In this document: positions 614 to 45,413 of the stretch, in pieces
How positions within the stretch are numbered: the first letter of the stretch is position 1
Layout of the letters: every line of letters starts with the position of its first letter
From: an uncultured Chitinophagaceae bacterium
Lineage (GTDB): Bacteria; Bacteroidota; Ignavibacteria; UBA10030; UBA8401
Assembly: GCA_964409765.1 (NCBI GenBank)
Contig: CAYPEM010000025.1
Coordinates: forward strand, 49-64,048
DNA length: 64,000 nt
Direction of reading: 5' to 3'
Notes under the pieces: generated by a model
What the model was told of the DNA's origin: nothing
The model's database searches: none
Seen by the model: only the letters and a program-made list of their open reading frames with translations
Program-made: the position numbers and the translations under genes

Positions 614-647
614 GTGTTAATTGTTCATTGTTAATTGTTAATTGCTT
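614..647 (-). repeat. Post-stop heptad (CAATTAA-like) tandem repeat element, copy 1
   Basis: mRNA sense reads AAGCAATTAACAATTAACAATGAACAATTAACAC and begins inside the TAA stop of the esterase gene (646-648). It matches the 2230-2263 element at 28 of 34 positions by hand alignment. Confidence 0.5.
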
Positions 648-2208: not shown

Positions 2209-2229
2209 CTTCCTATTACGAATTGCGTA

Positions 2230-2263
2230 TTATTAATTCTTAATTATTAATTGATAATTGCTT
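2230..2263 (-). repeat. Post-stop heptad (AATTAA-like) tandem repeat element, copy 2
   Basis: mRNA sense reads AAGCAATTATCAATTAATAATTAAGAATTAATAA and starts directly after the TAA stop of kduD (2264-2266). It is similar to the 614-647 element. Confidence 0.5.
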
Positions 2264-3019: not shown

Positions 3020-3045
3020 GCTTTCTTTTTCCTTATGATAGATTT

Positions 3046-4320: not shown

Positions 4321-4345
4321 TCAAACATCCTTTTCTAAAAAATAT

Positions 4346-4693
4346 TTACGATTTGATGAAATCTTCACGCATCGGTGTGAAGAAATCGATAAGGATGCTG
4401 TCTTCCAGTGCAACAACACCATGTTCGATATTTGCCGGGATGTAATAACAATCTTTGCATTTTTGAAGCTGTTTTTTCCCGTCGATCTGTACTTCGAACG
4501 AACCGGATTGGATATAGGTGATCTGTAAATGCGGATGTTTGTGCAGCGCACCAATGGATCCTTTTTTGAACTCAACATACACCGCCATCAATTGGTCGCC
4601 GTATGCCATGATCTTTCTCTTGATTCCTTCCGCAGGATATTCCCAGTCGATTGATTCAAAATCGATGAAGAGCTGTTCTTTTTGTACGAGCAT
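4346..4693 (-). CDS. kdgF: Cupin-domain protein, KdgF-like (unsaturated uronate linearisation)
   Basis: Cupin motif GALHKHPHLQITYIQSG...IPANIEHGV. I trimmed the start to ATG 4693 (MLVQKEQ...). That start has a GAGGAA Shine-Dalgarno site and avoids overlap with the upstream stop at 4707. Confidence 0.7.
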   Translation of the reverse strand: MLVQKEQLFIDFESIDWEYPAEGIKRKIMAYGDQLMAVYVEFKKGSIGALHKHPHLQITYIQSGSFEVQIDGKKQLQKCKDCYYIPANIEHGVVALEDSILIDFFTPMREDFIKS

Positions 4694-4706
4694 TGAAGTG
4701 ATTCCT

Positions 4707-6884
4707 CTAGTTTGACTTCCGTATTGCAGCATTTCCATTCCAGGAATAGGTGACGCCGTTTGCGATCATCGTATGCTGTTGAGTATCTGAAGATTCATTG
4801 TTGGAGATCATGATGGTCCAGGTTTTGCCGCTCTTCCATTCGATTGCGACAATCGATCCTGTCGAATCCGAATTTAAGACGGCAATATTTTTTACTGAAC
4901 TGCTGGCATTCCTCGATATTTCAATTGTTCCGTCCCACAATCCATGCGGTTCAATGACCGATGCGAATAAAGCTGATGGTGATTTTTTCCTCACGATAAC
5001 AGACGGTTCTCTCCTGAGATTATAGTTCGGATCGTTCGCTCCAATCCGAGCAAAGAACACTGTCGTTTGCGAATCGGCTGCACTGCTGACGGAGTAATAC
5101 CGTTGCCCGGAGAGCCATGAAAATTGCATCATGCCGTTTGCTTTTGCTTCGGCTTCTTTCCACAGATATTGGTAACCGTTTGCAGAACCAAGTGTTGATT
5201 GTTGAGAAGTATGTGCTGTCGATTTGATGTTTGTATAAATGAATTGTCCTATATAATAGAACGGAAGATCATATGTATGTTCTTTCTTCCCATCAACTTT
5301 GAACAGATCGACGATCACCGGCTTTTGCAGTGACGGATCGTTGATCATTAAAACAGTACGCTGCATTGATACATCAGAATATGCATTGGTGCACTTAGCA
5401 CTCATGAATTGAAAATCCTTTTCTTTCGAAGAAAAGAAATTGCGGTCGGCATGGAATTTTTCTGAAATACCGATCTTTCCTTGATAGTGTGATTGTTCAT
5501 CAACAGTAACGGTATTATGTGCGATCGTTTGCATCGCAAATGATTTTGTTTCAGGCAGATATCGACCGCCATATTTCGGTTCTACATTGATGAATCTCGC
5601 CGCACCATAATCCTGCAATTGTTCTCGGTTTTGGTCGTAAAAAAGGAGCGACAATTTATCATAGTGTCCATGCGAAAGTCCATGACCTGTATATTTCATC
5701 AATGCCAGCATTTGATCGTCGTTCGATCCATAGCGCAGAATTCCGACTCCCCCTCCATCGCCGTTTGCACCATCACTCAATTCCAGACTTTTATACGGGA
5801 ATGGAATAATTTCTTTGTCCTTGGAAAGATCGCGCGCAACTTCAACACCCCCGCCGTTTAATGTTACCGAGTTCTGTTCGCGTGCAATGCTCAGGAATGA
5901 TTTATCATTGTTGAATTTCTTGTACGCTATATTCAACGCGAGGATCACTTCAGGTGAACGATATGTTTTTTCTTTAAGTGCATCGTTGATCGGAAGGAAT
6001 TGACCGGTAGTGTAGGTCAATTGAAGCATCGTATAAAATGCTTTCTTTAGAATACCATCGCGATATTCAAATATTTTCAGATCGGGACGATTGTTATCGA
6101 TCGATTGGGCGAAAACGAAGAACGGCATGATCGCATATCGAATATAGTATGGACCTTCAACAAAATATCCATCAGGAGAAAAGAGCAATTCCAATTGATT
6201 TAAGAATCCTCCCTGCTTGTTTTTTTCCGTTCCATACAGCGCCATCGCCACCATATCCGTATCGCGCAGAGCAAATCCTGCCATACCGACTGCAGCACTC
6301 ATCCAGGTGCCATGATTATGAATGCGATTAAGAACTGATTTCTGATCGACGGAAAAGAATTTCACCATCGGACGGAAGACATTTGCTTCAATGGTTTTCC
6401 TGTCTGCGGCAGGAATCGCATCATACACGCAATCGTAAGCTTGGATCGTATTTACCAACCAGACTGTTTCATTCAAAGACTGCCAGAATAATTTTCCCGG
6501 CGATTCACTCGCAGCAGCGGGATGAATTCCAAGCGTCGGATATAACATTGCATATTTTAAAAGCATTTCTTTCACGAAACGAGCATACTGTTCCTGTTTC
6601 GTAACCTGATACAGAATTCCTGCCATCTGCATTTCACCATAATTCTGTTTGTGCCGTTCGTGTGTATAACCTCCCGCATCAAAGGGAACAGGGACATCCA
6701 TCGGTGAAGCGATAGCTGCATCAACTTTTAATTTTGCATCGTTATATTCTTTATCAAAGAGTTGAAATTTCCCAAGCGAGCTTTTGATCGAAGAAATATC
6801 TTTTGCATTGACGATCATAGAAGGTCGCTGCTGTGCAGAGACAATTATGACACTGATAAAAAGAGTAAGAAGTATTTTTTTCAT
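4707..6884 (-). CDS. PL17-type oligo-alginate lyase (alginate-lyase N-domain plus heparinase II/III-like C-domain)
   Basis: 725 aa with a signal peptide. Blocks NRIHNHGTWMSAAVGMAG, GPYYIRYA and GHGLSHGHYDKLSLLFYD match my memory of PL17 exolytic lyases (Alg17C type). Confidence 0.8.
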   Translation of the reverse strand: MKKILLTLFISVIIVSAQQRPSMIVNAKDISSIKSSLGKFQLFDKEYNDAKLKVDAAIASPMDVPVPFDAGGYTHERHKQNYGEMQMAGILYQVTKQEQYARFVKEMLLKYAMLYPTLGIHPAAASESPGKLFWQSLNETVWLVNTIQAYDCVYDAIPAADRKTIEANVFRPMVKFFSVDQKSVLNRIHNHGTWMSAAVGMAGFALRDTDMVAMALYGTEKNKQGGFLNQLELLFSPDGYFVEGPYYIRYAIMPFFVFAQSIDNNRPDLKIFEYRDGILKKAFYTMLQLTYTTGQFLPINDALKEKTYRSPEVILALNIAYKKFNNDKSFLSIAREQNSVTLNGGGVEVARDLSKDKEIIPFPYKSLELSDGANGDGGGVGILRYGSNDDQMLALMKYTGHGLSHGHYDKLSLLFYDQNREQLQDYGAARFINVEPKYGGRYLPETKSFAMQTIAHNTVTVDEQSHYQGKIGISEKFHADRNFFSSKEKDFQFMSAKCTNAYSDVSMQRTVLMINDPSLQKPVIVDLFKVDGKKEHTYDLPFYYIGQFIYTNIKSTAHTSQQSTLGSANGYQYLWKEAEAKANGMMQFSWLSGQRYYSVSSAADSQTTVFFARIGANDPNYNLRREPSVIVRKKSPSALFASVIEPHGLWDGTIEISRNASSSVKNIAVLNSDSTGSIVAIEWKSGKTWTIMISNNESSDTQQHTMIANGVTYSWNGNAAIRKSN

Positions 6885-6887
6885 TTT

Positions 6888-7643
6888 TTATGCAAAGAAT
6901 AATCCGCCGTTGATTTGGATCGTTTCACCGTTGATAAACGACGATTTGTCGCCGGCGAGAAAGACAACCAGATCTGCAACTTCATACGCTTCCCCTTCAC
7001 GGCCGAGCGGTGTCATTCCGGCAACTTTTTGCCGGACTTCAGGTTTTGTGAATGTATTGTGGAATGTGGTATTGATCATTCCGGGTGAAACCGCATTCAC
7101 ACGGATCTTTTTCGATCCCAGTTCTTTTGCAAGACCGCGAGTCATCGTCAATACTCCAGATTTTGCAGCAGCGTATGCGATCGCTCCAGGTCCGCCGCCG
7201 TCATGAACAGCTTGGGTGGAGAAATTGATGATCGACGCCCCGTCGTTCAAAAATGGAATGGTCGCTTTTGTAACAAAGAATACACTCTTTAAATTCACAT
7301 TCATCACAGCATCCCAGAATGATTCTTCCATCTCAACGATCGTATGCCGTCCCATTAAACCGCCGGCAACATTCACAAGAATGTCGATCTTCTCTCCAAA
7401 TGCTTTTCGTCCTTCAGCAACCAGCTTTTGTGCATCGGCAAACTTGGTCATATCTCCCTGAACGGCAATTGCTTTTCCTCCGGCAGCCTTGATCGTTCTC
7501 ACCGTTTCTTCAGCGTCACTTTCGTTGTCATAATAATTAACAACTACCGATGCTCCGTGCTCTGCAAGTTTTAAAGAAACTTGTCTTCCGATATCACGTG
7601 CGCCTCCGGTAACTATTGCAACTTTGTTCTGCAGATCTCCCAT
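6888..7643 (-). CDS. SDR-family oxidoreductase (candidate DEH / 4-deoxy-L-erythro-5-hexoseulose uronate reductase)
   Basis: 251 aa. It has VAIVTGGARDIG Rossmann and YAAAKSGV catalytic blocks. The specific substrate is inferred only from its position in the locus. Confidence 0.75.
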   Translation of the reverse strand: MGDLQNKVAIVTGGARDIGRQVSLKLAEHGASVVVNYYDNESDAEETVRTIKAAGGKAIAVQGDMTKFADAQKLVAEGRKAFGEKIDILVNVAGGLMGRHTIVEMEESFWDAVMNVNLKSVFFVTKATIPFLNDGASIINFSTQAVHDGGGPGAIAYAAAKSGVLTMTRGLAKELGSKKIRVNAVSPGMINTTFHNTFTKPEVRQKVAGMTPLGREGEAYEVADLVVFLAGDKSSFINGETIQINGGLFFA

Positions 7644-7694
7644 GGTTTTTCCTCTGTTTTCGATTAAATAGAATGATTATTATTGATGTTAAAT

Positions 7695-8579
7695 TTATTT
7701 TATCCGAGTTAAGCCGATATCTTCAAAAAATTTCCACATGGCTGCGCTGATCTCGCTGTTCTTTTCTTTTGAGAATTTGCCATGTTTTCCCCCTTCTACG
7801 GTGAGAAAAATATTTTTCACACCGTTATCATCTAACTTTTTCTTCAAGTCAACCGATTGTTGATATGGAACAGTCGGATCGGCATCTCCATGGACTGTAA
7901 AGATTGGAGGAGATTTTTTTGTGATGTATTCTATGGGCGAAATTGTTTTCAAAAAATCTTTATTATCGATATTATCTTTAAGCCAGGCTTTAACTGATTT
8001 GCTTTTTTTGAAGTCACCTAAATTTGTAAGATCGGCAACTCCATATTTGTTCACGATTGCAACTACTGAAATATTTTCTGCCGGCGAACAATTGTTGTCA
8101 AATGAACGGTTGTTTCCCAGCAACCCCGCCATCAATGCCAGATGTCCACCCGCAGAGCCCCCCATTACAACAATTTTTTGAACATCAAAATGTAATTCTT
8201 TGGAATGGTTAATAAGATAGATCAACGCACAGCGAACATCTTCGACTGCTGCCGGTGCGGGTGCAATTGGAGACATTCGATACTCTATGTTTGCAACCGC
8301 CCATCCGTTCTTGAAAAATGAACCAAATCCGCGTTGAGACTCTTTAACACCATGGGTCCAAGCACCGCCATGGATATTAATAACGAGCGGAGTAGGATCA
8401 GTATTCTCCGAAGGACGATAAATATCCATTTTACCTTCCCATTCACCTACTGTTGTATAGACAATATTTACTTGTGCTGAATAGTTCTTCGGATATTCTA
8501 CCGGAAGAAATTCTTCGTCTTCTTGTGCAAAGAGAGAAATCGTTAAAAGAATAAATACGATCAGATATTTTTTCGTCAT
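7695..8579 (-). CDS. Secreted alpha/beta-hydrolase esterase
   Basis: 294 aa with a signal peptide. It has an oxyanion HGGAW block, the nucleophile elbow GGSAGGHLA, and HGDADPTVP. Confidence 0.75.
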   Translation of the reverse strand: MTKKYLIVFILLTISLFAQEDEEFLPVEYPKNYSAQVNIVYTTVGEWEGKMDIYRPSENTDPTPLVINIHGGAWTHGVKESQRGFGSFFKNGWAVANIEYRMSPIAPAPAAVEDVRCALIYLINHSKELHFDVQKIVVMGGSAGGHLALMAGLLGNNRSFDNNCSPAENISVVAIVNKYGVADLTNLGDFKKSKSVKAWLKDNIDNKDFLKTISPIEYITKKSPPIFTVHGDADPTVPYQQSVDLKKKLDDNGVKNIFLTVEGGKHGKFSKEKNSEISAAMWKFFEDIGLTRIK

Positions 8580-8588
8580 ATTTTATTT

Positions 8589-10037
8589 TTAAAACTGATA
8601 CCCGAGATCCAACGAAATCGAATTGGTTTGAAATGTATTGTAATTGATATTGGATTCCCATGCATCCGCATATTCAGTCAGCATATACTCAAATGCTGCA
8701 TTAACAGAGATACCGTCATATGTAAAACCACAACCTACCGAATATACCCAACCTCGTACAGGATCATCAAATAATGCTGCGCCAGCAGCGATGAATGTTT
8801 GAACATGTTCTCTATAACCTGCGCGCAGTGCCAACCATTCAAAAGGTACATACTCAATTCCCGTTCGCAGCAATGCACTGTTTAACCAAGGGTTAATAGT
8901 AGTATCATTGGTTGAATATTTTGTTTCGCTGTATGAATTGACTACATAATCGATACCGATAGAAACTTTTGAACTTGGATGAAGCGCAATTCCAAAAGAG
9001 TACTGCAACGGGATAGATATTTTATCCTTCCCCTTTTGTGTGTACGTTGAAACTGAACTTCCCATGCTGTCTTTTTGCTGAATGGTGCTCCATTCTCGTG
9101 TGAGTTCTAGTGGAGTGACAATTACTGCACTCATGGTAAAGACCTCATTGTGAAAAGAACCCGCAATTGTTCCGTTCATTCCTGAATAATCTGATGTTCC
9201 AGTAATTGTACTATGGTTGTAAATGGAATCATTTCGCATAACATTAAAACCGCTGCTATTATTTGTTTTAAGAACGAAAATTCCACGATCCACTCTTCGC
9301 TCAATATCATCAGATGTTCCGTTGTATAATGTTCCCGACACCCCTATCGTGAGATTGTCCAAGATATCCACTGCACCGCCAATTGAATATCCATTGATAG
9401 AACCGGTCCGTTCGCGAATAAATTGATACCATTGTACTTTTACTGAATCACCCACTTTTGGTCTCACAACCGGAGATGGTCGATACGCCCCGATATTCGG
9501 ATCTAAAACATTATTGTTTTGAAAATACGTATCAAGAGAAATGGCTTCTCTAAATCCACCACTTACATTCCACTTGGTATTAAGGAAGTTAAATGGAACA
9601 CTGATTGCAACACTGGGAAGAGATGTTCTATTTTTATCCATATTCCAATTCGTCGGAATTTGATCATACGGTCGAGCTAATTTTTGCGGGATAGTATCGA
9701 CCACATTCCTAATAGTGCCTTCTATGACCAAACTCAATTCTGCATAGTACTCATCGGGATGCCATTCCTGCTCTTGTTTGTAGGAAGAAAAAATCAGTGA
9801 ACTTCCTAACTGAACATTCAATGATTTCACTTTTGTCAGTAAGGATGGATTGGAGAATAAAGAGTTAGCATCATCGCCTACACCTAACATACTTCCACCC
9901 ATTCCTCGAGACCTGGCACTTGAAAGTGAAAACTGATCTATACCCTGTATCGTTAATGGTGCGCCGGCATTTTGGGCAAACAGAAAACTCATTTGCACTA
10001 AACAACTTATTGTAAGGATCTGTCGAAATAATCTCAT
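8589..10037 (-). CDS. Outer-membrane beta-barrel protein, PorV/PorP-like (paralogue B)
   Basis: 482 aa with a signal peptide. The N-terminal motif is SARSRGMGGSMLGVGDDANSLFSNPSLL. The sequence shows an alternating hydrophobic pattern and ends ...LDLGYQF (terminal aromatic). Its start overlaps the upstream stop by 4 nt (ATGA). Confidence 0.6.
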   Translation of the reverse strand: MRLFRQILTISCLVQMSFLFAQNAGAPLTIQGIDQFSLSSARSRGMGGSMLGVGDDANSLFSNPSLLTKVKSLNVQLGSSLIFSSYKQEQEWHPDEYYAELSLVIEGTIRNVVDTIPQKLARPYDQIPTNWNMDKNRTSLPSVAISVPFNFLNTKWNVSGGFREAISLDTYFQNNNVLDPNIGAYRPSPVVRPKVGDSVKVQWYQFIRERTGSINGYSIGGAVDILDNLTIGVSGTLYNGTSDDIERRVDRGIFVLKTNNSSGFNVMRNDSIYNHSTITGTSDYSGMNGTIAGSFHNEVFTMSAVIVTPLELTREWSTIQQKDSMGSSVSTYTQKGKDKISIPLQYSFGIALHPSSKVSIGIDYVVNSYSETKYSTNDTTINPWLNSALLRTGIEYVPFEWLALRAGYREHVQTFIAAGAALFDDPVRGWVYSVGCGFTYDGISVNAAFEYMLTEYADAWESNINYNTFQTNSISLDLGYQF

Positions 10038-11074
10038 TTGAATTGTACTCCTAAACTGATGCGGTGAACATTCCCTAAATATTCTCCCATACTTCCAAAG
10101 CTATAATCAACTCCTAGAAGCATCCCCGGAACATCGGTTTTTATTCCGCCGCCGAACGTTAAACCTTCATTGTCATAATTATATTTATAGCCTGCGCGAA
10201 GTTTGAATAATTCCATAAACCCATATTCCGCTCCGAAATGCATTTGCTGATCGTAATCGTTTGGTTGAAGAATATCATACGACATCGTCAATGTATTCTT
10301 GTCGTCGGACAGCAGCAATGCATCGCTTCCCAAAAGATTCCCGGAAATACCAAGTCGGAATAGCAGCGGGGCAGGATAATCTTCTACGGCAAATTTTACT
10401 TGCGAACCGAAGTTCTGTACTGCAGCTCCAATTTGTAATGATTTGTATCCGGTTTTATATTTCATGCCAAAATCGAATAAAAAAACTTTTGCTGTAGCAT
10501 TGTATTGTTCTTGAACAGCATTTGCTTTGTTCTCCAGAGGTGCTTCAACAGTTCCGCCATCCCATAATGTTTCTGACGCATATTTTATTGTAATACCGGT
10601 TGAGAAATGATCGGTAAGCTGTTGTGCATATGAAATACCTACCAAGAGTGAAAGTGGTGTAAAAGTGTTTCCGGTGAAACCGGGATTAAAATTTCCCGAA
10701 GGATCAAATCGTTGAGAACTGGCTTTTGTTTCCTCGATACTTCCGATGTCAGTCATCTGAAATTGTGCTCCGAGAAATCCGTAATCACCTAAATTGATTC
10801 CATATGCAATAGCGTCCTGTTTGGTATCAAAGATCCATAACGTGTAGGTTGCTGTCACTTCTTGATTTTGTATGGTCGTTAAACCGGCAGGATTCCAAAA
10901 TACTGCATCTACACCGTCAATGAATGCTGATGATGCGTCGCCCATAGCCGTGATTCGTGCACTCGGCATCACTTTTAAAAATTGCATTGAAGTTGTCCCC
11001 ACTTTTTTTTGTGCAGACAGAATCAGCGAAAGAAGGATCGTTGAAAGAATTAAAAATATTGTTCTATTTCTCAT
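10034..11074 (-). CDS. PorV/PorQ-family-like outer-membrane beta-barrel (paralogue A)
   Basis: I trimmed the start to ATG 11074 (MRNRTIFLILSTILLSLILSAQ, a signal peptide; SD AAGGG). The tracked longer ORF would overlap the upstream gene. Motif MQFLKVMPSARITAMGDASSAFIDGVDAVFWNPAGL. The protein ends ISLGVQFK. Confidence 0.65.
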   Translation of the reverse strand: MRNRTIFLILSTILLSLILSAQKKVGTTSMQFLKVMPSARITAMGDASSAFIDGVDAVFWNPAGLTTIQNQEVTATYTLWIFDTKQDAIAYGINLGDYGFLGAQFQMTDIGSIEETKASSQRFDPSGNFNPGFTGNTFTPLSLLVGISYAQQLTDHFSTGITIKYASETLWDGGTVEAPLENKANAVQEQYNATAKVFLFDFGMKYKTGYKSLQIGAAVQNFGSQVKFAVEDYPAPLLFRLGISGNLLGSDALLLSDDKNTLTMSYDILQPNDYDQQMHFGAEYGFMELFKLRAGYKYNYDNEGLTFGGGIKTDVPGMLLGVDYSFGSMGEYLGNVHRISLGVQFK

Positions 11075-11084
11075 AATATTTCCC

Positions 11085-13283
11085 TTATCGTATGACCACA
11101 AATTTTCCGCTGGTCGTTTTACCGTCAGGAGCACTGACAACAAAGAAATAAAGTCCTGGAGCGATTTTTTGATTATTGCGAGTAACTTGATACCAGTCAT
11201 GAGAATTACTGTCTTCATTGTGTTCAAGTGTTTCGATCAACTGACCGGAATATGAATAAATCCTGATCGTGCAGACCGTCGGTAATTGGAAGAATGTTAT
11301 CTTGGAATTGGCATCCGCTAATGCCGATACTCCCATAAATCCCGACCGGATGATGAAAGGATTTGGAACAACGACCACTTTGCTCAGTGATTTTTCTGCT
11401 CCAAGATATGTTTTCACCGGTTTAGAATTGGATTTAGAATTTCGTTCTCCGTTCTGATGTACGGTAACAACAGAATAATAAAATGATTCGCTGACCTTCG
11501 TCGTACTATCGATAACGGTATATCGTCCATTATCAAAAAACCGAGTATCATTTATTCCAATACTATCTAATCGAGTCCATGGACCATTGGCATCGCCTGA
11601 ACGATATACTTCATAGTATCGAAGAGGGGATGACAATCGATTCGAGGTATAGGACTCAACACTATTTATCCATGAAATAACATTTTGTGCTTTGCTGTTA
11701 CTTCGTATTTCAAGAATTGGGTTGGGAACCAATAATGGAAATTTATACACTCCTTTGTCCGGTGAACGTTCCGGCCAAAAAGCGATTGAATCATGATCTA
11801 GATACGGCACTCCAGAATATGCTTCAATAGCACGATCTGCAACTTCTCGAACCGTTACGGTATTTGAATTGATATATTGTGGAAGAGAATAGGAAGAAAG
11901 ATATTTGCTTCCATAGACAATTCCATTGATGGAAATTGTATCAGACCAATTTGGAACCGGATTAAATGCAGCTAAACTGGCATCCTCACCGCAATTTTGA
12001 CCGCAGCTTCCTCCTTCATCTTTCAACCCTGCATCAGTTTCGGATTTTCTTGCCGCACCATATCCGGCTACTTCCGCAATTGCAAATCGAACTTTTTCTC
12101 CGAATTTTATATTGTAAGGTCCAAATGCCAATATTCTGCCGACACCAAAATACATGCTCTGGCGTACGTTAAAACTTCCCCGACCAATCCAATCAGTACC
12201 AAAAATTGCTGTATTACTATACGGGTTATTTTTTCTAGCCTGACCAATATCGATGTATGGTTGTATCTTTGATATTCTCAAGTTCGAAGTTTCTAATCGG
12301 TTCAGAAAAGGTTGTTTCACATGAAGATTCGCGTCCCAAATGTTTATTGTATCAGACGATCGAACTTGGATCTGTGTCTCACCTTTTTTTGCAAGATGAG
12401 TGGTATCATAATATAGAGGTAAAAATCCAACTGCTTGCGGTGATAATAATCCCCCCCCATTCACCTGATTATTTGCCCAATCAGTAAAAAATTTAATGTC
12501 AGGTTTTCCGGTACGATCGATGGCATAATTCAACCAGCGATTCCGGTCAAAGCGTGCGCGCAGATCATGATTTTCAAAATCAGTATAGTTCCAACGATTA
12601 TAATTTCTTTCATAGCCAAACATCGATGGAGTCAGTCCATAAGCAAATGCGATCAACACATCTTTTAGATCTACATTCGATTCTATCGTAGTGGGATTAC
12701 CATCACGGTTTCCGGTATTTTCAATTTCATATTCATAAATGATAAAATCATCATAGTCCGGTTGACTCCATGCGCGGCTTATTCTTGTAACCGTTAATCC
12801 TGTTGGCGTTGCCCATTGTGAAGTAATAATTTCTTCAGCTTCATCAGGATTATACGTAGGATTTAACTGACCATTTGTCAGAACAGGATAATTTTCAACT
12901 CGTTCAAGTTTTAAGGGAAAGCTATATGTTCCAACGACGACTTCGGAAATATTGGAACCCGCACCGCCGCAAAACGCAAACCGTCTCGCTATAGTATCCG
13001 GAGAAGTTGCGCCTATATGAATACCGCCGCCAAATGAATGGTATTGACCGTTATATGCTACACCCTCAACGATTGTACCTGAATTCCCCGGCCATTCAAA
13101 CGATGGTATTCCTTTTACACTTCCCGTATTTGCCTGATCATAGGCTCTACCAAGTTCACCGGTATTAAAAACTGTTTGATGCAATGTCCCTCGTTTATGT
13201 ACAACATAATCACGGGCTTGCGAAAAAATATTTTGCATCAAAACTAATAATAGAAGTGTAACGGTTATTTTTATTCTATACAT
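11085..13283 (-). CDS. Secreted protein of unknown function with a T9SS type-A-like C-terminal sorting domain
   Basis: 732 aa with signal peptide MYRIKITVTLLLLVLMQNIFSQ. The C-terminus VVVPNPFIIRSGF...IRIYSYSGQLIETL...APGLYFFVVSAPDGKTTSGKFVVIR resembles T9SS CTDs. I recognise no catalytic family. Confidence 0.7.
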   Translation of the reverse strand: MYRIKITVTLLLLVLMQNIFSQARDYVVHKRGTLHQTVFNTGELGRAYDQANTGSVKGIPSFEWPGNSGTIVEGVAYNGQYHSFGGGIHIGATSPDTIARRFAFCGGAGSNISEVVVGTYSFPLKLERVENYPVLTNGQLNPTYNPDEAEEIITSQWATPTGLTVTRISRAWSQPDYDDFIIYEYEIENTGNRDGNPTTIESNVDLKDVLIAFAYGLTPSMFGYERNYNRWNYTDFENHDLRARFDRNRWLNYAIDRTGKPDIKFFTDWANNQVNGGGLLSPQAVGFLPLYYDTTHLAKKGETQIQVRSSDTINIWDANLHVKQPFLNRLETSNLRISKIQPYIDIGQARKNNPYSNTAIFGTDWIGRGSFNVRQSMYFGVGRILAFGPYNIKFGEKVRFAIAEVAGYGAARKSETDAGLKDEGGSCGQNCGEDASLAAFNPVPNWSDTISINGIVYGSKYLSSYSLPQYINSNTVTVREVADRAIEAYSGVPYLDHDSIAFWPERSPDKGVYKFPLLVPNPILEIRSNSKAQNVISWINSVESYTSNRLSSPLRYYEVYRSGDANGPWTRLDSIGINDTRFFDNGRYTVIDSTTKVSESFYYSVVTVHQNGERNSKSNSKPVKTYLGAEKSLSKVVVVPNPFIIRSGFMGVSALADANSKITFFQLPTVCTIRIYSYSGQLIETLEHNEDSNSHDWYQVTRNNQKIAPGLYFFVVSAPDGKTTSGKFVVIR

Positions 13284-13295
13284 AAGAATAATTCC

Positions 13296-16121
13296 TTAAA
13301 AATTAACGGTCATACCGACATAAAATTCAATGGGACGATTTGAATAGAGCAAAAAAGTCTGATCAACAAGAAATGGAGCATAGCCAGTGAAGTATTTAAG
13401 TCCGCTTGGATCGGCATCATAGATTGAAGCATTGTTATTTGCAATTGACGGTGAGGATCCTGTTGTGGATGCACTTTGAAAGACAGTATTGTATGAATAG
13501 ATCCGTTGATCGAAGACGTTGAACACTTCAATATAGAATGTCGTACTTGAACCAAATAGCTTGGAAACTTTCTTGCTGATCTTCAAATCAGTATTGTATT
13601 CAGATGGGGTCCTATGTTGATTAACAAGTCCATAATCTAAATTTGATGTATAAGGTCTGCCGCTCCGAGCGAATGATTTCAAAGAGAAACTGAATTGTTG
13701 CAATGGATACATATCAAGGATACTAAAACCCCATTCTTCAGGAGTTACTACTGCTAAAGTAAGGACTAAGTTATGAGTCCTGTCAAAATCGAGAGTGACA
13801 TCTTTTGCGTTTGGCAATTCAACTGCAGGACTGTTCAGATCAGGTTGCAGTATAAAGCGGGGAACAGTGTTGAATGGTGTACTATTGCTACCTGTCGCAA
13901 TACTGTACGAGTACGATGCTTTACCGGTAAACGCACCTCGTCGATTTGCTAAAGTAACATGAAAGCCTCGAATATCTGCGTAATCACGATTCATAAATGT
14001 TCTGTATCCGGCATCGGCGGGTTTTACTGTGAAGATTGCCTGTTGAATTAAATTCTTCACATCTTTATAAAAACCGCTCACATCAAGTGTGAAACCATCT
14101 CCAAGTCCTTGCGCAAGTCCTACATCATAACTTTGCGTATACTCCGGTTTGAGATTTGGATTTCCCAATTGAAGAACCCTGGAATCACTCGGGCGAACTT
14201 GGGAAAAAAGAACTCGGTTGAACGAAGGACGCTGGACAAACGTACCATAATTCAAATGGAAAACAGTGGCAATTGAAACAGGAAATGAAATTCCGATGCG
14301 AGGCTGTAAACGCCCGATCGTTACTGTTTTTAATTTCGGTGAATTCGAATTTGTTGATGCTACCGGTAAATAATAGTCTGGGTAATATTCATCGTTTGGA
14401 TTAAAAAGGTCGAAACGAAGTCCGACTTTTGCTATCATCCCTTCAAATTCCATCTTGTCTTGTACAAACAAACCAAGTTCAAAAGGTTTTGCAGCATACA
14501 CTTCGTTTTGCTGGGATCCGGCACTGGAGAGACTCGTTCGATTATTGACATCGATATTATAGATGTTATACTGTATTCCTCCCAACAATTGGTGTGATTG
14601 ATTTATCTGACTTGTTATAGAACCATCAAATGTGATTGTTCCTGTTTTCTCCGAACGAAAATCATTGTCCATTTGACCGGTGCTGAACTTATCTTGAATA
14701 TTATAGTATGGCCACACTGCAACATTCTGGTCATCGGTGATATATCTATTTGGATCGGCAACGCGAACACCATCGATATAGTGTGTCGTCACTTGATTGA
14801 TTTTGATTTCATAAAAAGTTGAATTTGAAAACGCATGGGCAAACCGCACACCAAGTTGAAGATCATCTTCATTTGAAATAGCTAAACCGATGACACGATC
14901 CCACAACCATCGTTGAAACGATGTGTAGCTGAAACTGTTTAATCCCGGGACTAAATGTTCTTTTCGATTTGTATAAGCTCCGCTAAAGCGCATTGTCATA
15001 CCATCGCCAAAATCATAAACAATGTTTCCCATCAGTTGACGTTTAATATCCGGTTCAGCAGTTGGAATGATCAACCATTTGTTCTCGACAAACGATGCCA
15101 AAAACAAACGAATATCTTTGGTTAATGGTCCTCCGATATTAAAATCAACTGAGTAATCAATGAGGTTATCATATGGTTTATTGAGATCACGACGTGCTTG
15201 TTTCCATAATTGGTATGCAATCTGAGATGCCTGAGCTGAATCTTTATTGTATCGTGAACTAAACGATCCGCCGAGTCCACTCCAATAAACACTTCCTGAT
15301 GTTCCTGAGGCAGATAGATCGGCACCATTCCAACCCTCAGCGGAGTTCAATATTTGTAAATACGGATTAGCTCGTTCATCAAAAACGCTGGGGCCAAAAT
15401 GTTTGTAACCCGGCATGCGAGTTCTTAATTCGGCCCTTCCCTGCCATCGATCTGCTCGTCCTTCTTTCATCGAAATATTGACGACACCTGATTGAGCATT
15501 TCCATATTGAGCGCCAAATCCGCTTGTTGTAACTTCAACTTCTTCAACAGCACTCATAATTGGAGCAAATGCAGCACCGCTGGTCAAAGGATTTACGATT
15601 CCCATTCCCGCCAGTGTGTACAATTCTTCACCATCTCGACCGCCTCGAAAATGTCCGTCCACCACTTCCGAAGAAAGAGCAAGAACGTTCGACAGATCAA
15701 TTACACCCGGAGAAATTAAAACATCTTCTGCACGAATTATTTCACTCGTTGAAGTCTTCTCTCTCTCGACATCCGGCCGATCCGCACTAATAATGACCTC
15801 TTTGTCCAATGCAACAATTGTTTCTTCCAATAAAAAATCCAGATCTGTTGTTCTATTCTGGTTGACAATCACACCTTGTTTCGTAACCGTTCCATAGCCA
15901 AGAAGAGAAGCAGTCACATCACAAATTTTGGGGTCAATATTGAGAATGAAGTAGTTTCCTTCTATATCGGTAATCGTACCTTGCTTTGTCCCTTTGATAA
16001 AAACATTAACTCCTGGAATCCCTTCTTTGTTTTTTTTATCTAAAATTTTACCGGCGATTTTTCCTGTCTGGGAAAAACTGAACGATGCTAGGACCAATAA
16101 CATTAGAATTATTTTTTTCAT
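13296..16121 (-). CDS. TonB-dependent receptor with an N-terminal carboxypeptidase-regulatory-like domain
   Basis: 941 aa with a signal peptide. GKIAGKILDKKNKEGIPGVNVFIKGTKQGTITDIEGNYF matches the CarbopepD_reg-like domain. A plug region follows, and the barrel ends in a terminal aromatic residue (...VGMTVNF). Confidence 0.9.
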   Translation of the reverse strand: MKKIILMLLVLASFSFSQTGKIAGKILDKKNKEGIPGVNVFIKGTKQGTITDIEGNYFILNIDPKICDVTASLLGYGTVTKQGVIVNQNRTTDLDFLLEETIVALDKEVIISADRPDVEREKTSTSEIIRAEDVLISPGVIDLSNVLALSSEVVDGHFRGGRDGEELYTLAGMGIVNPLTSGAAFAPIMSAVEEVEVTTSGFGAQYGNAQSGVVNISMKEGRADRWQGRAELRTRMPGYKHFGPSVFDERANPYLQILNSAEGWNGADLSASGTSGSVYWSGLGGSFSSRYNKDSAQASQIAYQLWKQARRDLNKPYDNLIDYSVDFNIGGPLTKDIRLFLASFVENKWLIIPTAEPDIKRQLMGNIVYDFGDGMTMRFSGAYTNRKEHLVPGLNSFSYTSFQRWLWDRVIGLAISNEDDLQLGVRFAHAFSNSTFYEIKINQVTTHYIDGVRVADPNRYITDDQNVAVWPYYNIQDKFSTGQMDNDFRSEKTGTITFDGSITSQINQSHQLLGGIQYNIYNIDVNNRTSLSSAGSQQNEVYAAKPFELGLFVQDKMEFEGMIAKVGLRFDLFNPNDEYYPDYYLPVASTNSNSPKLKTVTIGRLQPRIGISFPVSIATVFHLNYGTFVQRPSFNRVLFSQVRPSDSRVLQLGNPNLKPEYTQSYDVGLAQGLGDGFTLDVSGFYKDVKNLIQQAIFTVKPADAGYRTFMNRDYADIRGFHVTLANRRGAFTGKASYSYSIATGSNSTPFNTVPRFILQPDLNSPAVELPNAKDVTLDFDRTHNLVLTLAVVTPEEWGFSILDMYPLQQFSFSLKSFARSGRPYTSNLDYGLVNQHRTPSEYNTDLKISKKVSKLFGSSTTFYIEVFNVFDQRIYSYNTVFQSASTTGSSPSIANNNASIYDADPSGLKYFTGYAPFLVDQTFLLYSNRPIEFYVGMTVNF

Positions 16122-16405
16122 ACTGATAAATCCTTTTGAATATTCCGACTAATCAAAAACGGGTGAAGACACTGAGAAGATTTAGAGTGAGGCTGATGAA
16201 GAGTTGAATACTGTATCGTTGATTGTGAATGAATCATAGAGTCACTGTATTTACATGTTTGCTGTTGATTCATACCACCATACCCAAATTAACTGATGGT
16301 ATATAAACAGTGCATATTCTTAATAATATGTCTCGTGGGTTTAGCTTCATAAAAATTGATTACTCTACATCACATATCATACATGTTCAGAAAGGACAAA
16401 TTTTT

Positions 16406-17176
16406 TTATTTTTTTTCCAGTTTGATAATATTGTCAGATGATTGGAGAAGTCCTTTTGCAATCATCATGTTTCTAATATGCTCTTCTGCAATTTCAAGGT
16501 GCCGTTTCATCGCCTGGTGTGCCCCTTCCGGATCTCTACGTAGAATCTCTTCCAATATCTTTCCATGCCATTCAATCGCAGATTCTTTTGCATTCGGATT
16601 TGTTTCATACACATCCTTTTTAATATCCGGCATCATTCGATGTATCGGCTCTAGAATCAACGGCATTAAATGATTACTCGAGGCATTTGCAATGTGCAAA
16701 TGAAAACTGATATCTAATTTTGCAAGGCCTACATAATCTCCATCGAAAGAATTAAGTTCATCAATATCACCCTGCATTAATTTTTCATCTTCGGCAGTAT
16801 GATGAGCTGCTGCATATGCTGCAATTGCCGGTTCTATAATTTGTCGAGCATGAATAAGATCAAGTGCAGTACCGCGTTCAGTCTTATATTGAAGATATCG
16901 ATGCATAGGGTCGGTAACACTATCAACTGAAAAACCTTTGACAAATATCCCTTTTCCTTTAACAATTGTTATAAGGTCCCGCGCACTAAGCATTCTTAAT
17001 GCTTCACGTAATGCAGTTCTGCTTACACCAAATTGATCGCACAATTCACTTTCAGAGGGTAATCTATTCCCTTTTACGATCTTCTTTAGTCTGATTGCTT
17101 CTTCAATGCTAGCAGCTACTGTTTTACTTAGTAACTCTCTATTTTCGACTGGGGTAAAAATGATAGTATTCCTCAA
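16406..17176 (-). CDS. GntR/FadR-family transcriptional regulator (winged HTH plus FCD domain)
   Basis: 256 aa with a TTG start. HTH block LPSESELCDQFGVSRTALREALRML, with a helical FCD-like C-terminal half. It sits directly upstream of the uronate operon. Confidence 0.85.
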   Translation of the reverse strand: MRNTIIFTPVENRELLSKTVAASIEEAIRLKKIVKGNRLPSESELCDQFGVSRTALREALRMLSARDLITIVKGKGIFVKGFSVDSVTDPMHRYLQYKTERGTALDLIHARQIIEPAIAAYAAAHHTAEDEKLMQGDIDELNSFDGDYVGLAKLDISFHLHIANASSNHLMPLILEPIHRMMPDIKKDVYETNPNAKESAIEWHGKILEEILRRDPEGAHQAMKRHLEIAEEHIRNMMIAKGLLQSSDNIIKLEKK

Positions 17177-17211
17177 TGATTTTAATAGTCACATATAACA
17201 TGTCATACAAG

Positions 17212-17233
17212 TTGGACAATGATAACTGTCCAA
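17212..17233. promoter_or_regulatory. Perfect 7-bp inverted repeat TTGGACA-N8-TGTCCAA (candidate operator) upstream of the GntR gene
   Basis: Read directly from the sequence. It lies 36-57 nt upstream of the TTG start at 17176. Its function is inferred only. Confidence 0.3.
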
Positions 17234-17503
17234 AAGTTAGAAGTCAAGTAGAAATTTCAAGCAGTTTAGATACTCAAAATTAAAAAAATCAATGTAATAG
17301 CAATTAGTTATCGCTAAAGTAAAGGAAAAACTAAAATTACTCATAAAATACTTATGCCAATCAGTAAATTTCTTAAATTTATTATGTTCACAAATTTTAC
17401 AACCTACTTAAAGGTTAAAATTGCATATTTTGAGGTTGAATCGAAGTTACAGAATTGATTAAATGGCAATTATTATTAAATGTTGATTATAGGGACCAAA
17501 TGA

Positions 17504-27407: not shown

Positions 27408-27419
27408 TATTCCCCCTTA

Positions 27420-27457: not shown

Positions 27458-27480
27458 CATTGAAAATAACTCTATTAAAA

Positions 27481-45387: not shown

Positions 45388-45413
45388 AGTATTCCTTCCA
45401 AATAATTTTTTTA

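What the first reader, a model, noticed from the sequence alone, without database searches (positions are those of the whole stretch)
8589..16121. SusD-less uptake cassette: TonB-dependent receptor, T9SS-CTD surface protein and two PorV-like barrels heading a PUL
Seen in the sequence: four tightly packed genes (gaps of 12 nt and 10 nt, then a 4-nt ATGA overlap) open the operon. They are a 941-aa TBDR with a carboxypeptidase-regulatory-like N-domain, a 732-aa signal-peptide protein and two paralogous barrels. The 732-aa protein ends in a T9SS type-A-like CTD (VVVPNPF...GLYFFVV...GKFVVIR). Both barrels carry SAR-x3-MG-x(8-10)-D-x(4-5)-F-x-NP-x-L near the N-terminus and aromatic C-termini (GVQFK, GYQF). 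No SusD/RagB-like lipoprotein ORF exists in the locus. Established knowledge: Bacteroidota PULs pair SusC-type TBDRs with a SusD lid. PorV-family barrels bind T9SS cargo CTDs. PorP/SprF-type barrels are encoded next to their cognate cargo. Inference: the CTD protein may be displayed by dedicated PorV-like barrels and act as the substrate-capturing partner of the TBDR. That would be a T9SS-dependent functional substitute for SusD/SGBPs, and I am not aware that such a module has been characterised experimentally.
Basis: partly seen in the sequence, partly recalled or inferred. Interest (0 to 1): 0.75.

Follow-up and report, generated by a model that had tools for sequence, protein, structure and literature searches.

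The report
SusD-less polyuronate uptake cassette with tethered surface protein
Four tightly packed genes at the head of an alginate-degradation operon encode an outer-membrane importer, a secreted surface protein and two small barrel proteins that probably hold that protein on the cell surface; this conserved, unstudied arrangement appears to replace the well-known SusC/SusD sugar-capture pair in several bacterial phyla.

Summary
All four ORFs, the 12 nt and 10 nt gaps, the 4-nt overlap, the motifs and the absence of any SusD gene were confirmed. The genes open an 11-gene operon on the minus strand, downstream of a GntR regulator. The operon also encodes a PL17-like lyase, a KdgF-like cupin, an MFS transporter, two SDRs and two esterases.

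The order TBDR, 732-aa protein, barrel B1, barrel B2 is kept in 71 of 84 related loci from Ignavibacteriota, Rhodothermales and Calditrichota. The other 13 loci are cut by contig ends. Neighbours are alginate genes in 40 loci and pectin genes in 16.

- **B1** is a true PorV/PorQ-family barrel.
- **B2** is a remote homologue of B1 with about 140 extra residues.
- **The 732-aa protein** has a beta-supersandwich domain unknown to Pfam, an Fn3-like domain and a C-terminal domain (CTD).

The CTD is the best-conserved part of the protein. Across the PDB its profile matches only the retained CTD of PorZ, which binds PorQ.

[quoted passage not shown] A simpler TBDR–protein–B1 triad occurs in contigs assigned to Latescibacterota and Gemmatimonadota. 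The function is inferred; no paper describing the cassette was found.

The parts
16406..17176 (-). GntR/FCD-family transcriptional regulator upstream of the operon
   Evidence: Pfam GntR 70.3 bits and FCD 82.8 bits. A homologue sits in the same position in many related loci.
16122..16405 (-). 284-nt intergenic region holding the presumed operon promoter and operator
   Evidence: This is the only long gap in the array. Consensus promoter and terminator scans were no better than shuffled sequence. Only short inverted repeats were found, e.g. 16272-16280 / 16294-16302, and they were not verified.
13296..16121 (-). TonB-dependent receptor, 941 aa: signal peptide, carboxypeptidase-regulatory-like N-terminal extension, TonB-box-like KEVIISA, short plug, large barrel. 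It is not a SusC/RagA member.
   Evidence: Pfam hits. SusC/RagA TIGR04056 scores 53.4 bits against a cut-off of 368. A family profile finds no full-length solved relative; the best hits cover the N-terminal extension, and the rest are short plug or partial barrel segments.
11085..13283 (-). 732-aa secreted protein, the cassette 'C' protein, with a signal-peptidase-I type leader and no lipobox Cys
   Evidence: No Pfam domain apart from weak CTD hits. 541 full-length relatives. AF2 model has pLDDT 86.7 and pTM 0.85.
11724..13220 (-). N-terminal domain of about 500 aa (residues 22-520) with a beta-supersandwich-like fold
   Evidence: AF2 model of this domain has pLDDT 88.2 and pTM 0.91. Foldseek hits have probability 1.0 but TM of only about 0.3. 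They fall on the non-catalytic N-terminal supersandwich domains of GH94, GH116, GH65 and GH149 enzymes, on the lyase BACCELL_00875, on aldose epimerase and on the YidC P1 domain.
11409..11711 (-). Fn3-like domain (residues 525-625)
   Evidence: Foldseek hits of the full-length model are dominated by tandem Fn3 structures.
11088..11387 (-). PorZ-like T9SS C-terminal domain (residues 633-732), with a low-confidence loop at residues 642-658
   Evidence: TIGR04183 23.6 bits; PorZ model hit at residues 629-731. 32 of 42 family members hit the PorZ CTD. The family profile hits only PorZ 5M11 residues 671-758 in the PDB. This is the most conserved region of the protein.
10034..11074 (-). Barrel B1, 346 aa, a PorV/PorQ-family outer-membrane barrel. 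It is neither the housekeeping PorV nor PorQ.
   Evidence: NF033709 204.9 bits (cut-off 90). PorQ equivalog 87.1 against 220; PorV equivalog 80.5 against 250. PDB sequence hit to PorV 6H3I, E 1.6e-5. All 18 homologues tested score alike.
8589..10037 (-). Barrel B2, 482 aa, a divergent homologue of B1 with about 140 extra residues that fall as insertions between the aligned blocks (extracellular location not tested). FadL/PorV/BamG superfamily.
   Evidence: hhalign of B1 and B2 families: 98.7% probability, E 2e-16. NCBIfam BamG 50.6 bits and PorV_fam 47.6 bits, both below cut-off.
646..8579 (-). Downstream operon genes: BD-FAE esterase 7695-8579, SDR 6888-7643, PL17-like lyase 4707-6884, KdgF-like cupin 4346-4738, MFS transporter 3046-4320, SDR 2264-3019, SASA esterase 646-2208
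   Evidence: Pfam hits. Gaps are at most 55 nt, and the lyase and BD-FAE esterase have signal peptides.

Best explanation
The four genes encode one outer-membrane module for capture and import of polyuronate fragments, here alginate, in place of a SusC/SusD pair.

**Shown.**
- The cassette is a conserved unit placed at or inside alginate and pectin utilisation loci.
- B1 belongs to the PorV/PorQ family.
- The 732-aa protein carries a PorZ-like CTD that is under stronger constraint than the rest of the protein.

**Inferred mechanism.**
1. The 732-aa protein is exported by Sec and then by the T9SS.
2. Its CTD is not cleaved. It stays bound to the cassette's own PorQ-like barrel B1, as PorZ stays on PorQ and PorU on PorV.
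3. The Fn3 spacer and the roughly 500-aa supersandwich domain are thereby held at the cell surface next to the TonB-dependent receptor.
4. The supersandwich domain binds polyuronate chains or oligomers produced by secreted lyases and hands them to the receptor.
5. The receptor imports the oligomers with TonB energy.
6. The periplasmic PL17-like lyase, the esterases, KdgF, the MFS transporter and the SDRs complete catabolism.
7. B2 is a second scaffold. It may dock on the receptor barrel, as BamG docks on BamA, or contribute substrate-type-specific loops.
For: **Conservation and linkage.**
- The order T-C-B1-B2 is found in 71 of 84 loci from Ignavibacteriota, Rhodothermales (including the isolates Rhodocaloribacter litoris and Rubrivirga) and Calditrichota. 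No locus breaks the order.
- Neighbours are PL6, PL17, KdgF, MFS and SDR genes in 40 loci. They are PL9, GH28, GH88 and UxaC genes in 16 loci.
- Many genomes carry two or more cassettes, each with its own barrels.

**Barrels.**
- B1 scores 204.9 bits on NF033709.
- B2 is homologous to B1.

**CTD subtype.**
- 32 of 42 family members hit the CTD part of the PorZ model. None of 10 neighbouring CTD-bearing enzymes does; they hit the M6i and M36 cargo CTDs instead.
- A profile of the cassette CTD finds only the PorZ CTD in the whole PDB, E 2e-4.

**Constraint on the CTD.**
- In the same 14 loci the cassette protein's CTD shows 66.5% mean pairwise identity against 53% for its body. The PL6 lyases show the reverse: CTD 36%, catalytic domain 59%.
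- Between alginate-type and pectin-type cassettes the CTD stays at 56% and B1 at 49%. The N-domain falls to 43% and the receptor barrel to 42%.

**Fold.** The N-domain model resembles the accessory supersandwich domains of glycan-active enzymes and lacks any catalytic (alpha/alpha)6 domain.

**Literature precedents.**
- The CTDs of PorU and PorZ are retained and bind PorV and PorQ. A review proposes that cognate PorV-like barrels protect CTDs from cleavage (PMC10947112; PMC10202324).
- The FadL-family barrel BamG docks on BamA and anchors a surface protein (PMC12611786).
- T9SS genes have been reported in Ignavibacteriota, Rhodothermota and Gemmatimonadetes (PMC11285876).

**T9SS use in this genome.** The window encodes another protein with a classical type-A CTD.
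Against: - No direct evidence exists for surface location, CTD retention, glycan binding or contact with the receptor.
- No multimer model could be run.
- The Foldseek matches of the N-domain are weak (TM about 0.3), so the fold assignment is only approximate.
- The protein is conserved at enzyme-like levels: about 50% identity and more than 60 invariant positions among 42 sequences, including many Arg, Glu, Tyr and Trp.
- The window's own operon has no endo-acting lyase. That leaves room for a catalytic role.
- B2 is ambiguous between PorV-like, BamG-like and FadL-like.
- T9SS core genes were not seen in the window.
Confidence: 0.5

Rival explanations
1. The 732-aa protein is a new type of surface-anchored enzyme, for example a polyuronate lyase or other depolymerase, rather than a binding partner. 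The cassette would couple extracellular cleavage to import.
For: - Conservation is high, with many invariant Arg, His, Tyr and Glu residues.
- The window's operon and its closest relatives (L005, L015-L017, L021, L022) contain no PL6 or PL7 endo-lyase.
- Supersandwich folds can be catalytic, as in aldose epimerase among the hits.
- The family occurs with both alginate and pectate loci, and both substrates are cleaved by beta-elimination.
Against: - No sequence or profile match to any lyase or hydrolase family in Pfam, NCBIfam or the PDB.
- The fold hits fall on accessory, not catalytic, domains.
- Most homologous loci already encode secreted PL6 or PL9 lyases with their own CTDs.
- The core sequence motif is kept in distant subfamilies that sit beside sulfatases, GH4, YdjC and GH84 genes. 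This argues for a substrate-independent structural role.
Confidence: 0.2
2. B1 and B2 act only as cassette-specific T9SS shuttles, like PorV, or as unrelated FadL-type channels. The CTD is cleaved as in ordinary cargo, and the protein is released or LPS-anchored without a stable barrel complex.
For: - TIGR04183 (type A) is just met at 23.6 bits.
- PorV is primarily a shuttle (PMC5562754, listed).
- Some B2 homologues carry precomputed FadL/Toluene_X hits and FadL-type source names.
Against: - The CTD is the most conserved region of the protein, opposite to the disposable CTDs of co-located lyases.
- The CTD resembles the retained PorZ CTD specifically.
- Each paralogous cassette keeps its own barrels instead of sharing a housekeeping PorV.
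- B1 scores far better on the PorV/PorQ family model than on FadL.
Confidence: 0.17
3. The TonB-dependent receptor works outward, like Myxococcus Oar which is needed for PopC secretion. It would export the 732-aa protein, and the PorV-like barrel would receive it independently of the T9SS.
For: - The receptor has the carboxypeptidase-regulatory-like N-domain also found in Oar-type TBDTs (my recollection of the Oar architecture; the paper PMC6434023 was only seen in the list).
- The TBDR-C-B1 triad is strictly co-inherited, also in contigs assigned to phyla where the T9SS is less well documented.
Against: - No Oar-like family hit was returned by Pfam or NCBIfam.
- The loci are catabolic and need an importer.
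- Classical T9SS cargo is encoded in the same loci, including 10 of 95 neighbours of the distant triads.
- The CTD is homologous to T9SS CTDs.
Confidence: 0.03

Closest known systems
SusC/SusD (RagA/RagB) pairs of Bacteroidota polysaccharide utilisation loci
   Same: - A large TonB-dependent transporter with a carboxypeptidase-regulatory-like N-terminal extension.
- A gene for a cell-surface partner immediately downstream.
- Location at the head of a glycan-degradation operon.
- The transporter and its partner diverge at similar rates.
   Different: - The receptor fails the SusC/RagA model (53 bits against 368).
- The partner is not a TPR-like SusD lipoprotein. It has an SPI leader, a supersandwich domain, an Fn3 domain and a T9SS CTD.
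- Anchoring is proposed to use dedicated barrels, not a lipid.
- One or two extra barrel genes are obligatory.
PorZ-PorQ and PorU-PorV sub-complexes of the T9SS attachment complex (Porphyromonas gingivalis)
   Same: - A PorV/PorQ-family 14-stranded barrel paired with a T9SS substrate whose CTD is retained and serves as the tether.
- The cassette CTD is most similar to the PorZ CTD (PMC10947112 and PMC10202324).
   Different: - These are not components of the secretion machinery. B1 misses the PorQ and PorV equivalog cut-offs.
- The passenger domain is unrelated to PorZ: the full-length PorZ model scores 21.6 bits against a cut-off of 260.
- The genes lie in catabolic operons next to a TBDR and occur in several paralogous copies per genome.
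PorP/SprF-like barrels with type-B CTD proteins (SprB/SprF, PG1035/PorP)
   Same: A cognate barrel is encoded next to its T9SS cargo and anchors it at the surface (PMC9143113, listed; PMC10202324).
   Different: The families differ. Only 1 of 42 CTDs hits the type-B model TIGR04131, and only 1 of 18 B1 proteins weakly hits PorP/SprF TIGR03519.
BamG-BamH of the Bacteroidota BAM complex
   Same: A FadL-superfamily barrel docks laterally on a larger barrel and anchors an extracellular protein with a carbohydrate-binding fold, forming a canopy over that barrel. BamG is the best NCBIfam hit of B2 (PMC12611786).
   Different: - B2 scores 50.6 bits against a cut-off of 250, so it is not a BamG.
- BamH is a lipoprotein, not a CTD protein.
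- The function there is outer-membrane protein biogenesis, not nutrient uptake.
P. gingivalis IhtA/IhtB (TonB-dependent receptor plus surface-exposed accessory protein)
   Same: A TBDR is encoded beside a surface-exposed protein that prepares or captures the ligand (PMC12094164). That IhtB is a T9SS CTD-family cargo is my own recollection and was not checked here.
   Different: The ligand is haem or iron. There is no dedicated PorV-like barrel in that operon. The cargo is reported as LPS- or lipid-anchored. The protein families are unrelated.

Membership tests
SusC/RagA TonB-dependent transporters | Score at or above the cut-off of TIGR04056 (368 bits) | tested here: not met
   53.4 bits, and only the N-terminal extension aligns. 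No full-length SusC structure was matched by the family profile.
SusC/RagA TonB-dependent transporters | Carboxypeptidase-regulatory-like N-terminal extension followed by a TonB box and a plug | tested here: met
   CarbopepD_reg_2 62.2 bits at residues 22-109. KEVIISA and a plug-like segment are read directly from the sequence. The PDB hit to a SusC-homologue N-terminal extension is 9hfj.
SusC/RagA TonB-dependent transporters | A SusD/RagB gene immediately adjacent | tested here: not met
   No SusD-family Pfam hit in any of the 54 window ORFs scanned, nor in the annotated homologous loci.
SusD/RagB | SusD-like Pfam domain and a lipoprotein signal (lipobox Cys) | tested here: not met
   The 732-aa protein has no SusD hit. 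Its leader MYRIKITVTLLLLVLMQNIFSQA has no Cys. The model is beta-rich, not TPR-like.
T9SS type-A CTD cargo | C-terminal domain matching TIGR04183 or PF18962 | tested here: inconclusive
   TIGR04183 scores 23.6 bits against a cut-off of 23, so it just passes. Pfam PF18962 scores 17 against 27 and fails. 41 of 42 relatives hit TIGR04183 at E<0.01.
T9SS type-A CTD cargo | Genome encodes the T9SS core (SprA/Sov, GldK/L/M/N) | not testable with these tools
   No core gene lies in the 64-kb window. Indirect signs are another classical CTD protein at 23328-25700 and literature reports of T9SS genes in these phyla (PMC11285876).
PorZ-type retained CTD | CTD sequence closest to the PorZ CTD rather than to cleaved cargo CTDs | tested here: met
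   32 of 42 members hit the PorZ CTD region, against 0 of 10 control enzymes. The only PDB hit of the CTD profile is PorZ 5M11 residues 671-758, E 2e-4.
PorZ-type retained CTD | CTD is not cleaved and binds a PorQ-like barrel | not testable with these tools
   This needs proteomics or co-purification. The only support is indirect: the CTD is more conserved than the body of the protein.
PorV/PorQ family (NF033709) | B1 scores at or above 90 bits | tested here: met
   204.9 bits. 18 of 18 homologues hit, best E 2.7e-64. PDB PorV 6H3I, E 1.6e-5.
PorV/PorQ family (NF033709) | B2 scores at or above 90 bits | tested here: not met
   47.6 bits. All 18 homologues hit but stay below the cut-off. B2 is nonetheless homologous to B1 by hhalign.
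PorV or PorQ proper (equivalogs NF033710, NF033711) | Score at or above 250 bits (PorV) or 220 bits (PorQ) | tested here: not met
   B1 scores 80.5 on PorV and 87.1 on PorQ. B2 scores 17 on PorQ.
PorP/SprF family | Match to TIGR03519 | tested here: not met
   Only 1 of 18 B1 homologues gives a weak hit (E 7.6e-5). The window proteins give none.
FadL/Toluene_X hydrophobic-substrate channels (PF03349) | Score at or above 29.7 bits | tested here: not met
   B1 scores 18.6 bits over 32 residues. B2 gives no hit. Some B2 homologues carry precomputed PF03349 hits, which fits superfamily-level kinship only.
BamG (NF053685) | Score at or above 250 bits | tested here: not met
   B2 scores 50.6 bits and B1 21.9 bits.
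Known polysaccharide lyase or glycoside hydrolase families | Sequence or profile match of the 732-aa protein to a catalytic domain | tested here: not met
   No Pfam, NCBIfam or PDB sequence match. Structural matches fall only on accessory supersandwich domains, at TM about 0.3. A novel catalytic family cannot be excluded.

The most novel reading that the evidence does not exclude
The TBDR / PorZ-type-CTD protein / PorQ-like barrel triad is an ancient and widespread alternative to SusCD in the FCB superphylum. It occurs in Ignavibacteriota, Rhodothermota and Calditrichota, and in contigs assigned to Latescibacterota, Gemmatimonadota and related candidate phyla. The polyuronate type carries a second barrel. 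In this reading a T9SS substrate is permanently plugged by its CTD into a dedicated barrel that sits beside the transporter. The result would be a multi-barrel complex whose protein lid or capture arm is delivered by secretion rather than by lipidation.
Probability: 0.35. Interest if true: 0.85.

Novelty: new variant of a known kind. Interest (0 to 1): 0.7.

Why it matters
SusC/SusD is the standard model for glycan import in Bacteroidota. How the many FCB-group bacteria without SusD couple surface glycan capture to TonB-dependent import is unknown.

This cassette offers a concrete and testable answer. It also links two fields that are usually studied apart, type IX secretion and nutrient uptake. 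If a PorZ-like CTD really serves as a permanent tether to a private PorQ-like barrel, the 'retained CTD' principle would extend beyond the secretion machinery itself.

The cassette could also serve as a genomic marker for polysaccharide utilisation loci in phyla where SusD-based PUL prediction finds nothing. In addition, the work defines a protein family unknown to Pfam. The family has only 151 clusters among 1.84 billion representatives, and it occurs in cultivated Rhodothermales, so experiments are feasible.

Tried and rejected
- **Full-length fold search.** Foldseek with the full-length model returned only Fn3 tandems. The N-domain had to be modelled separately.
- **Sequence searches of the PDB.** Single-sequence searches with the 732-aa protein, B2 and the TBDR gave nothing useful.
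- **B1 against B2 by BLASTP.** Only short terminal stretches align, at E 0.012 and 0.023. Profile comparison was needed.
- **Other cassettes in the window.** None was found.
- **Promoter, terminator and repeat scans.** Results were no better than shuffled sequence, and only short inverted repeats turned up.
- **Profile search with the B2 alignment.** It reached only close relatives. The two or three weak distant hits lay on short contigs and were not followed, so it did not reveal other cassette types.
- **First metagenome scan.** A tighter alignment, A7, worked.
- **Literature searches.** Searches for the cassette returned no paper describing it. Terms combined TonB-dependent, PorV, SusD, Ignavibacteria, Melioribacter, alginate lyase and Latescibacteria.
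- **Oar-like exporter idea.** Considered and kept only as a low-probability rival.
- **'B1 or B2 is the housekeeping PorV, PorQ or BamG'.** Rejected on equivalog cut-offs.
- **Mirror-tree co-evolution of the CTD and B1.** Considered but not run, because shared phylogeny would confound it.

Full report
**1. The observation**

All four genes lie on the minus strand.
- TonB-dependent receptor (TBDR): 13296-16121, 941 aa.
- 732-aa protein: 11085-13283.
- Barrel B1: 10034-11074, 346 aa. Its true ATG is at 11074. The mechanical ORF list runs it back to a TTG inside the upstream gene.
- Barrel B2: 8589-10037, 482 aa.

The gaps are 12 nt and 10 nt, followed by a 4-nt ATGA overlap. The quoted strings are all present: VVVPNPF, GLYFFVV, GKFVVIR, GVQFK, GYQF, and the SAR..MG..D..F.NP..L motif with small spacing differences between the two barrels.

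The array continues with gaps of at most 55 nt. It runs through a BD-FAE esterase, an SDR, a PL17-like lyase (Alginate_lyase + Hepar_II_III_C, with a signal peptide), a KdgF-like cupin, an MFS transporter, a second SDR and a SASA esterase. A GntR/FCD regulator lies 284 nt upstream of the TBDR.

None of the 54 window ORFs scanned has a SusD/RagB domain.

**2. What the parts are**

*The TBDR.*
- It has a carboxypeptidase-regulatory-like N-terminal extension and a TonB-dependent barrel.
- It fails the SusC/RagA model, scoring 53.4 bits against a cut-off of 368.
- A family profile matches no solved transporter over its full length; the best hits cover the N-terminal extension, and the rest are short plug or partial barrel segments.

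*B1.*
- It is a clear PorV/PorQ-family protein: NF033709 scores 204.9 bits against a cut-off of 90.
- It misses both equivalog models, PorQ at 87 bits against 220 and PorV at 80 against 250.
- All 18 homologues tested behave the same way.

*B2.*
- It is below the cut-off for every model. Its best hits are BamG at 50.6 bits and PorV_fam at 47.6 bits.
- Profile-profile comparison shows that it is homologous to B1 over the whole barrel: 98.7% probability, E 2e-16, 301 columns.
- It carries about 140 extra residues as insertions between the aligned blocks.

*The 732-aa protein.*
- It has no Pfam domain except weak CTD hits.
- AlphaFold2 with 42 homologues gives a confident model, with pLDDT 86.7 and pTM 0.85.
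- The model shows a domain of about 500 residues, an Fn3-like domain and a C-terminal beta-sandwich.
- The N-domain modelled alone has pLDDT 88 and pTM 0.91.
- It matches, weakly but consistently (Foldseek probability 1.0, TM about 0.3), the accessory N-terminal supersandwich domains of GH94, GH116, GH65 and GH149 enzymes. It also matches the lyase BACCELL_00875, aldose epimerase and the YidC P1 domain.
- No catalytic (alpha/alpha)6 domain is present.

**3. Conservation and context**

*Size of the family.*
- The 732-aa family has 541 relatives in the large protein database.
- 304 stretches of the species-representative genome collection encode a relative; several genomes carry two.
- Only 151 clusters match the N-domain among 1.84 billion representative proteins. 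Nearly all full-length members are 600-850 aa, with the domain at the N-terminus.

*Gene order.* I called ORFs in 84 loci and searched them with the window's proteins.
- The order TBDR, C, B1, B2 is complete in 71 loci.
- The other 13 loci all end at a contig edge. One of these loci, fetched twice as L002 and L024, also has C duplicated in tandem.
- No locus breaks the order.
- The loci come from Ignavibacteriota, Rhodothermales and Calditrichota. They include the complete genomes of the isolates Rhodocaloribacter litoris and Rubrivirga sp.

*Neighbours.*
- Alginate genes (PL6, PL17, KdgF) flank 40 complete cassettes.
- Pectin genes flank 16. In L066 these are PL9 with a CTD, GH28, GH88, DUF4861, UxaC and a LacI regulator.
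- Seven cassettes have neighbours of both kinds.
- Many genomes hold two or more cassettes, each with its own pair of barrels.

**4. The CTD is a special, PorZ-like subtype**

- Of 42 family members, 41 hit the type-A model TIGR04183 and 32 hit the CTD portion of the PorZ model.
- Ten neighbouring CTD-bearing enzymes served as controls. Nine hit TIGR04183, none hit PorZ, and they hit the CTDs of M6i and M36 cargo instead.
- A profile built from the last ~100 residues of 19 cassette proteins from three subfamilies was searched against all PDB sequences. Its only significant match is residues 671-758 of 5M11, the P. gingivalis PorZ protein, E 2e-4.
- In 14 loci that encode both proteins, the cassette protein's CTD shows 66.5% mean pairwise identity against 53% for its body. 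The PL6 lyases show the opposite, with CTD 36% and catalytic domain 59%.
- Between alginate-type and pectin-type cassettes the CTD (56%) and B1 (49%) stay more alike than the N-domain (43%), the receptor barrel (42%) and B2 (31.5%).

A secretion signal that is thrown away should not be the best-conserved part of a protein. A tether that must fit a conserved partner could be.

The literature gives the precedent.
- A review suggests that cognate PorV-like barrels protect CTDs from cleavage (PMC10202324).

**5. A wider family**

- Distant relatives of 600-850 aa share the N-terminal core motif (EAEEII..W.T..G.TVTR...AWS.PDYDDFIIxEY), the Fn3 domain and the same unusual CTD ending G(K/T)F(V/M)II(K/R).
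- In 78 metagenome loci found with one such subfamily, the order TBDR, C, B1 recurs in most of the loci long enough to show it. No B2 was found in any of them. Two loci carry two triads in tandem.
- Source names place these proteins in Latescibacterota, Gemmatimonadota and Handelsmanbacteria.
- Their neighbours include sulfatases, GH4, PhyH dioxygenases, DUF6785 and an SSF transporter.
- In a pooled scan of 95 neighbours, the commonest families were Por_Secre_tail (10 proteins), YdjC, BD-FAE esterases and GH84.

The polyuronate cassette is therefore one branch of a broader and apparently ancient TBDR / CTD-protein / PorQ-like-barrel module.

**6. Most likely mechanism**

*Shown.*
- A conserved four-gene outer-membrane unit sits in polyuronate loci.
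- B1 is a PorV/PorQ-family member.
- The CTD is PorZ-like and under strong constraint.

*Inferred.*
- The protein crosses the outer membrane through the T9SS. The window encodes another classical CTD cargo at 23328-25700, and T9SS genes are reported in these phyla (PMC11285876).
- The protein keeps its CTD and is tethered through it to B1.
- Its supersandwich domain sits on an Fn3 stalk next to the TBDR. There it binds polyuronate chains or oligomers and feeds the receptor.
- B2 may dock on the receptor barrel, as the FadL-family barrel BamG docks on BamA while anchoring the surface protein BamH (PMC12611786).

I put about 0.9 on the cassette being one co-functioning outer-membrane module of polyuronate use. 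I put about 0.55-0.6 on CTD-mediated tethering to B1, and about 0.45 on a non-catalytic capture role. The whole statement gets about 0.5.

**7. Rival explanations**

- *A new surface enzyme (0.2).* High conservation and the lack of an endo-lyase in the window's own operon favour it. Against it stand the absence of any catalytic-family match, the presence of secreted PL6 or PL9 lyases in most sister loci, and retention of the core motif beside unrelated enzyme sets.
- *Barrels as mere shuttles or FadL-type channels, with a cleaved CTD (0.17).* The CTD conservation pattern, the PorZ-specific similarity and the private barrels of each paralogous cassette all argue against it.
- *Outward transport by the TBDR, as in Myxococcus Oar/PopC (0.03).* Nothing supports it beyond the shared N-domain architecture.

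**8. Comparison with known systems**

The cassette works like a SusCD pair, but it is not a member of that family. The SusC model is failed and no SusD is present.

Its anchoring principle is that of PorZ-PorQ and PorU-PorV. However, B1 is neither PorQ nor PorV, and the passenger domain is unrelated to PorZ. The cassette is distinct from PorP/SprF with type-B CTDs, from BamG-BamH and from FadL channels. In each case the membership cut-off was tested and not met.

Eight literature searches aimed at the cassette or its setting turned up no paper describing it (the attempt was rejected). I classify it as a new variant of a known kind: a TonB-dependent glycan-uptake locus whose surface partner is supplied and anchored by the T9SS.

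**9. Verdict**

The finding is real, conserved and not ordinary.

Its functional core still needs experiments: surface tethering, glycan binding and contact with the receptor. Cultivated Rhodothermales that carry the cassette make such experiments practical. Interest score: 0.7.

Noticed in passing
window 23328-25700 (+): A 790-aa esterase carries a classical type-A T9SS CTD (Por_Secre_tail 33.9 bits, ending ...SGVYFYQLRSANFVDSKKMILLK). It is an independent sign that this genome uses the T9SS, and it makes a useful contrast with the PorZ-like CTD of the cassette protein.
   Followed up: partly
window 646-8579 (-): The window's alginate operon has a periplasmic PL17-like lyase and two esterases (BD-FAE, SASA) but no PL6 or PL7 endo-lyase, unlike most sister loci. 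The substrate may be O-acetylated (bacterial) alginate or pre-cut oligomers. The endo-lyase must be encoded elsewhere, or the 732-aa protein supplies that activity.
   Followed up: partly
L002 / L024 (JACRFA010000319.1), 10001-14430 in L002: The cassette protein is tandemly duplicated (TBDR-C-C-B1) in one Ignavibacteriae MAG. The two copies are only about 45-50% identical to the query.
   Followed up: no
L085 and L089 (metagenome contigs): Two complete TBDR / CTD-protein / B1 triads of different subfamilies lie head to tail. This shows that the triad behaves as a modular unit.
   Followed up: no
L163-L165 (Gemmatimonadota and unnamed MAG contigs), 6700-17400: The distant triads lack B2. They are followed by a DUF6785 protein (all three loci) and, in L164 and L165, an SSF transporter. 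All three encode sulfatase and PhyH dioxygenases, and L164 and L165 also a GH4 glycosidase. This suggests use of the same module for sulfated or other glycans.
   Followed up: partly
P0129 (Rubrivirga marina homologue of B2): UniRef names this protein 'Aromatic hydrocarbon degradation protein', and JGI names others 'opacity protein-like surface antigen' or 'long-subunit fatty acid transport protein'. Given the constant polyuronate-cassette context, these are probably over-annotations at the FadL-superfamily level.
   Followed up: no
window 44350-47178 (-) and L001 3429-6049: A DUF5683-ParB-ParA block occurs in the window about 28 kb from the cassette. In Rhodocaloribacter litoris the same block lies 1-4 kb upstream of the cassette. 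This is probably conserved housekeeping synteny rather than a functional link.
   Followed up: no
window 4346-4738 (-): The cupin (KdgF-like) ORF overlaps the end of the PL17-like gene by 32 nt. Homologues are shorter (82 aa in L002), so the true start is probably an internal Met.
   Followed up: no
window 26682-30994 (-): Two LPP20-domain proteins flank a PrsW-family intramembrane protease and two ORFs without Pfam hits. The purpose of this small envelope-related cluster is unknown.
   Followed up: no
window 16272-16302: A short imperfect inverted repeat (ATACCACCA ... TGATGGTAT, 13 nt apart) lies in the 284-nt region between the GntR gene and the TBDR. It is a possible operator, but it is no stronger than chance matches.
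   Followed up: no
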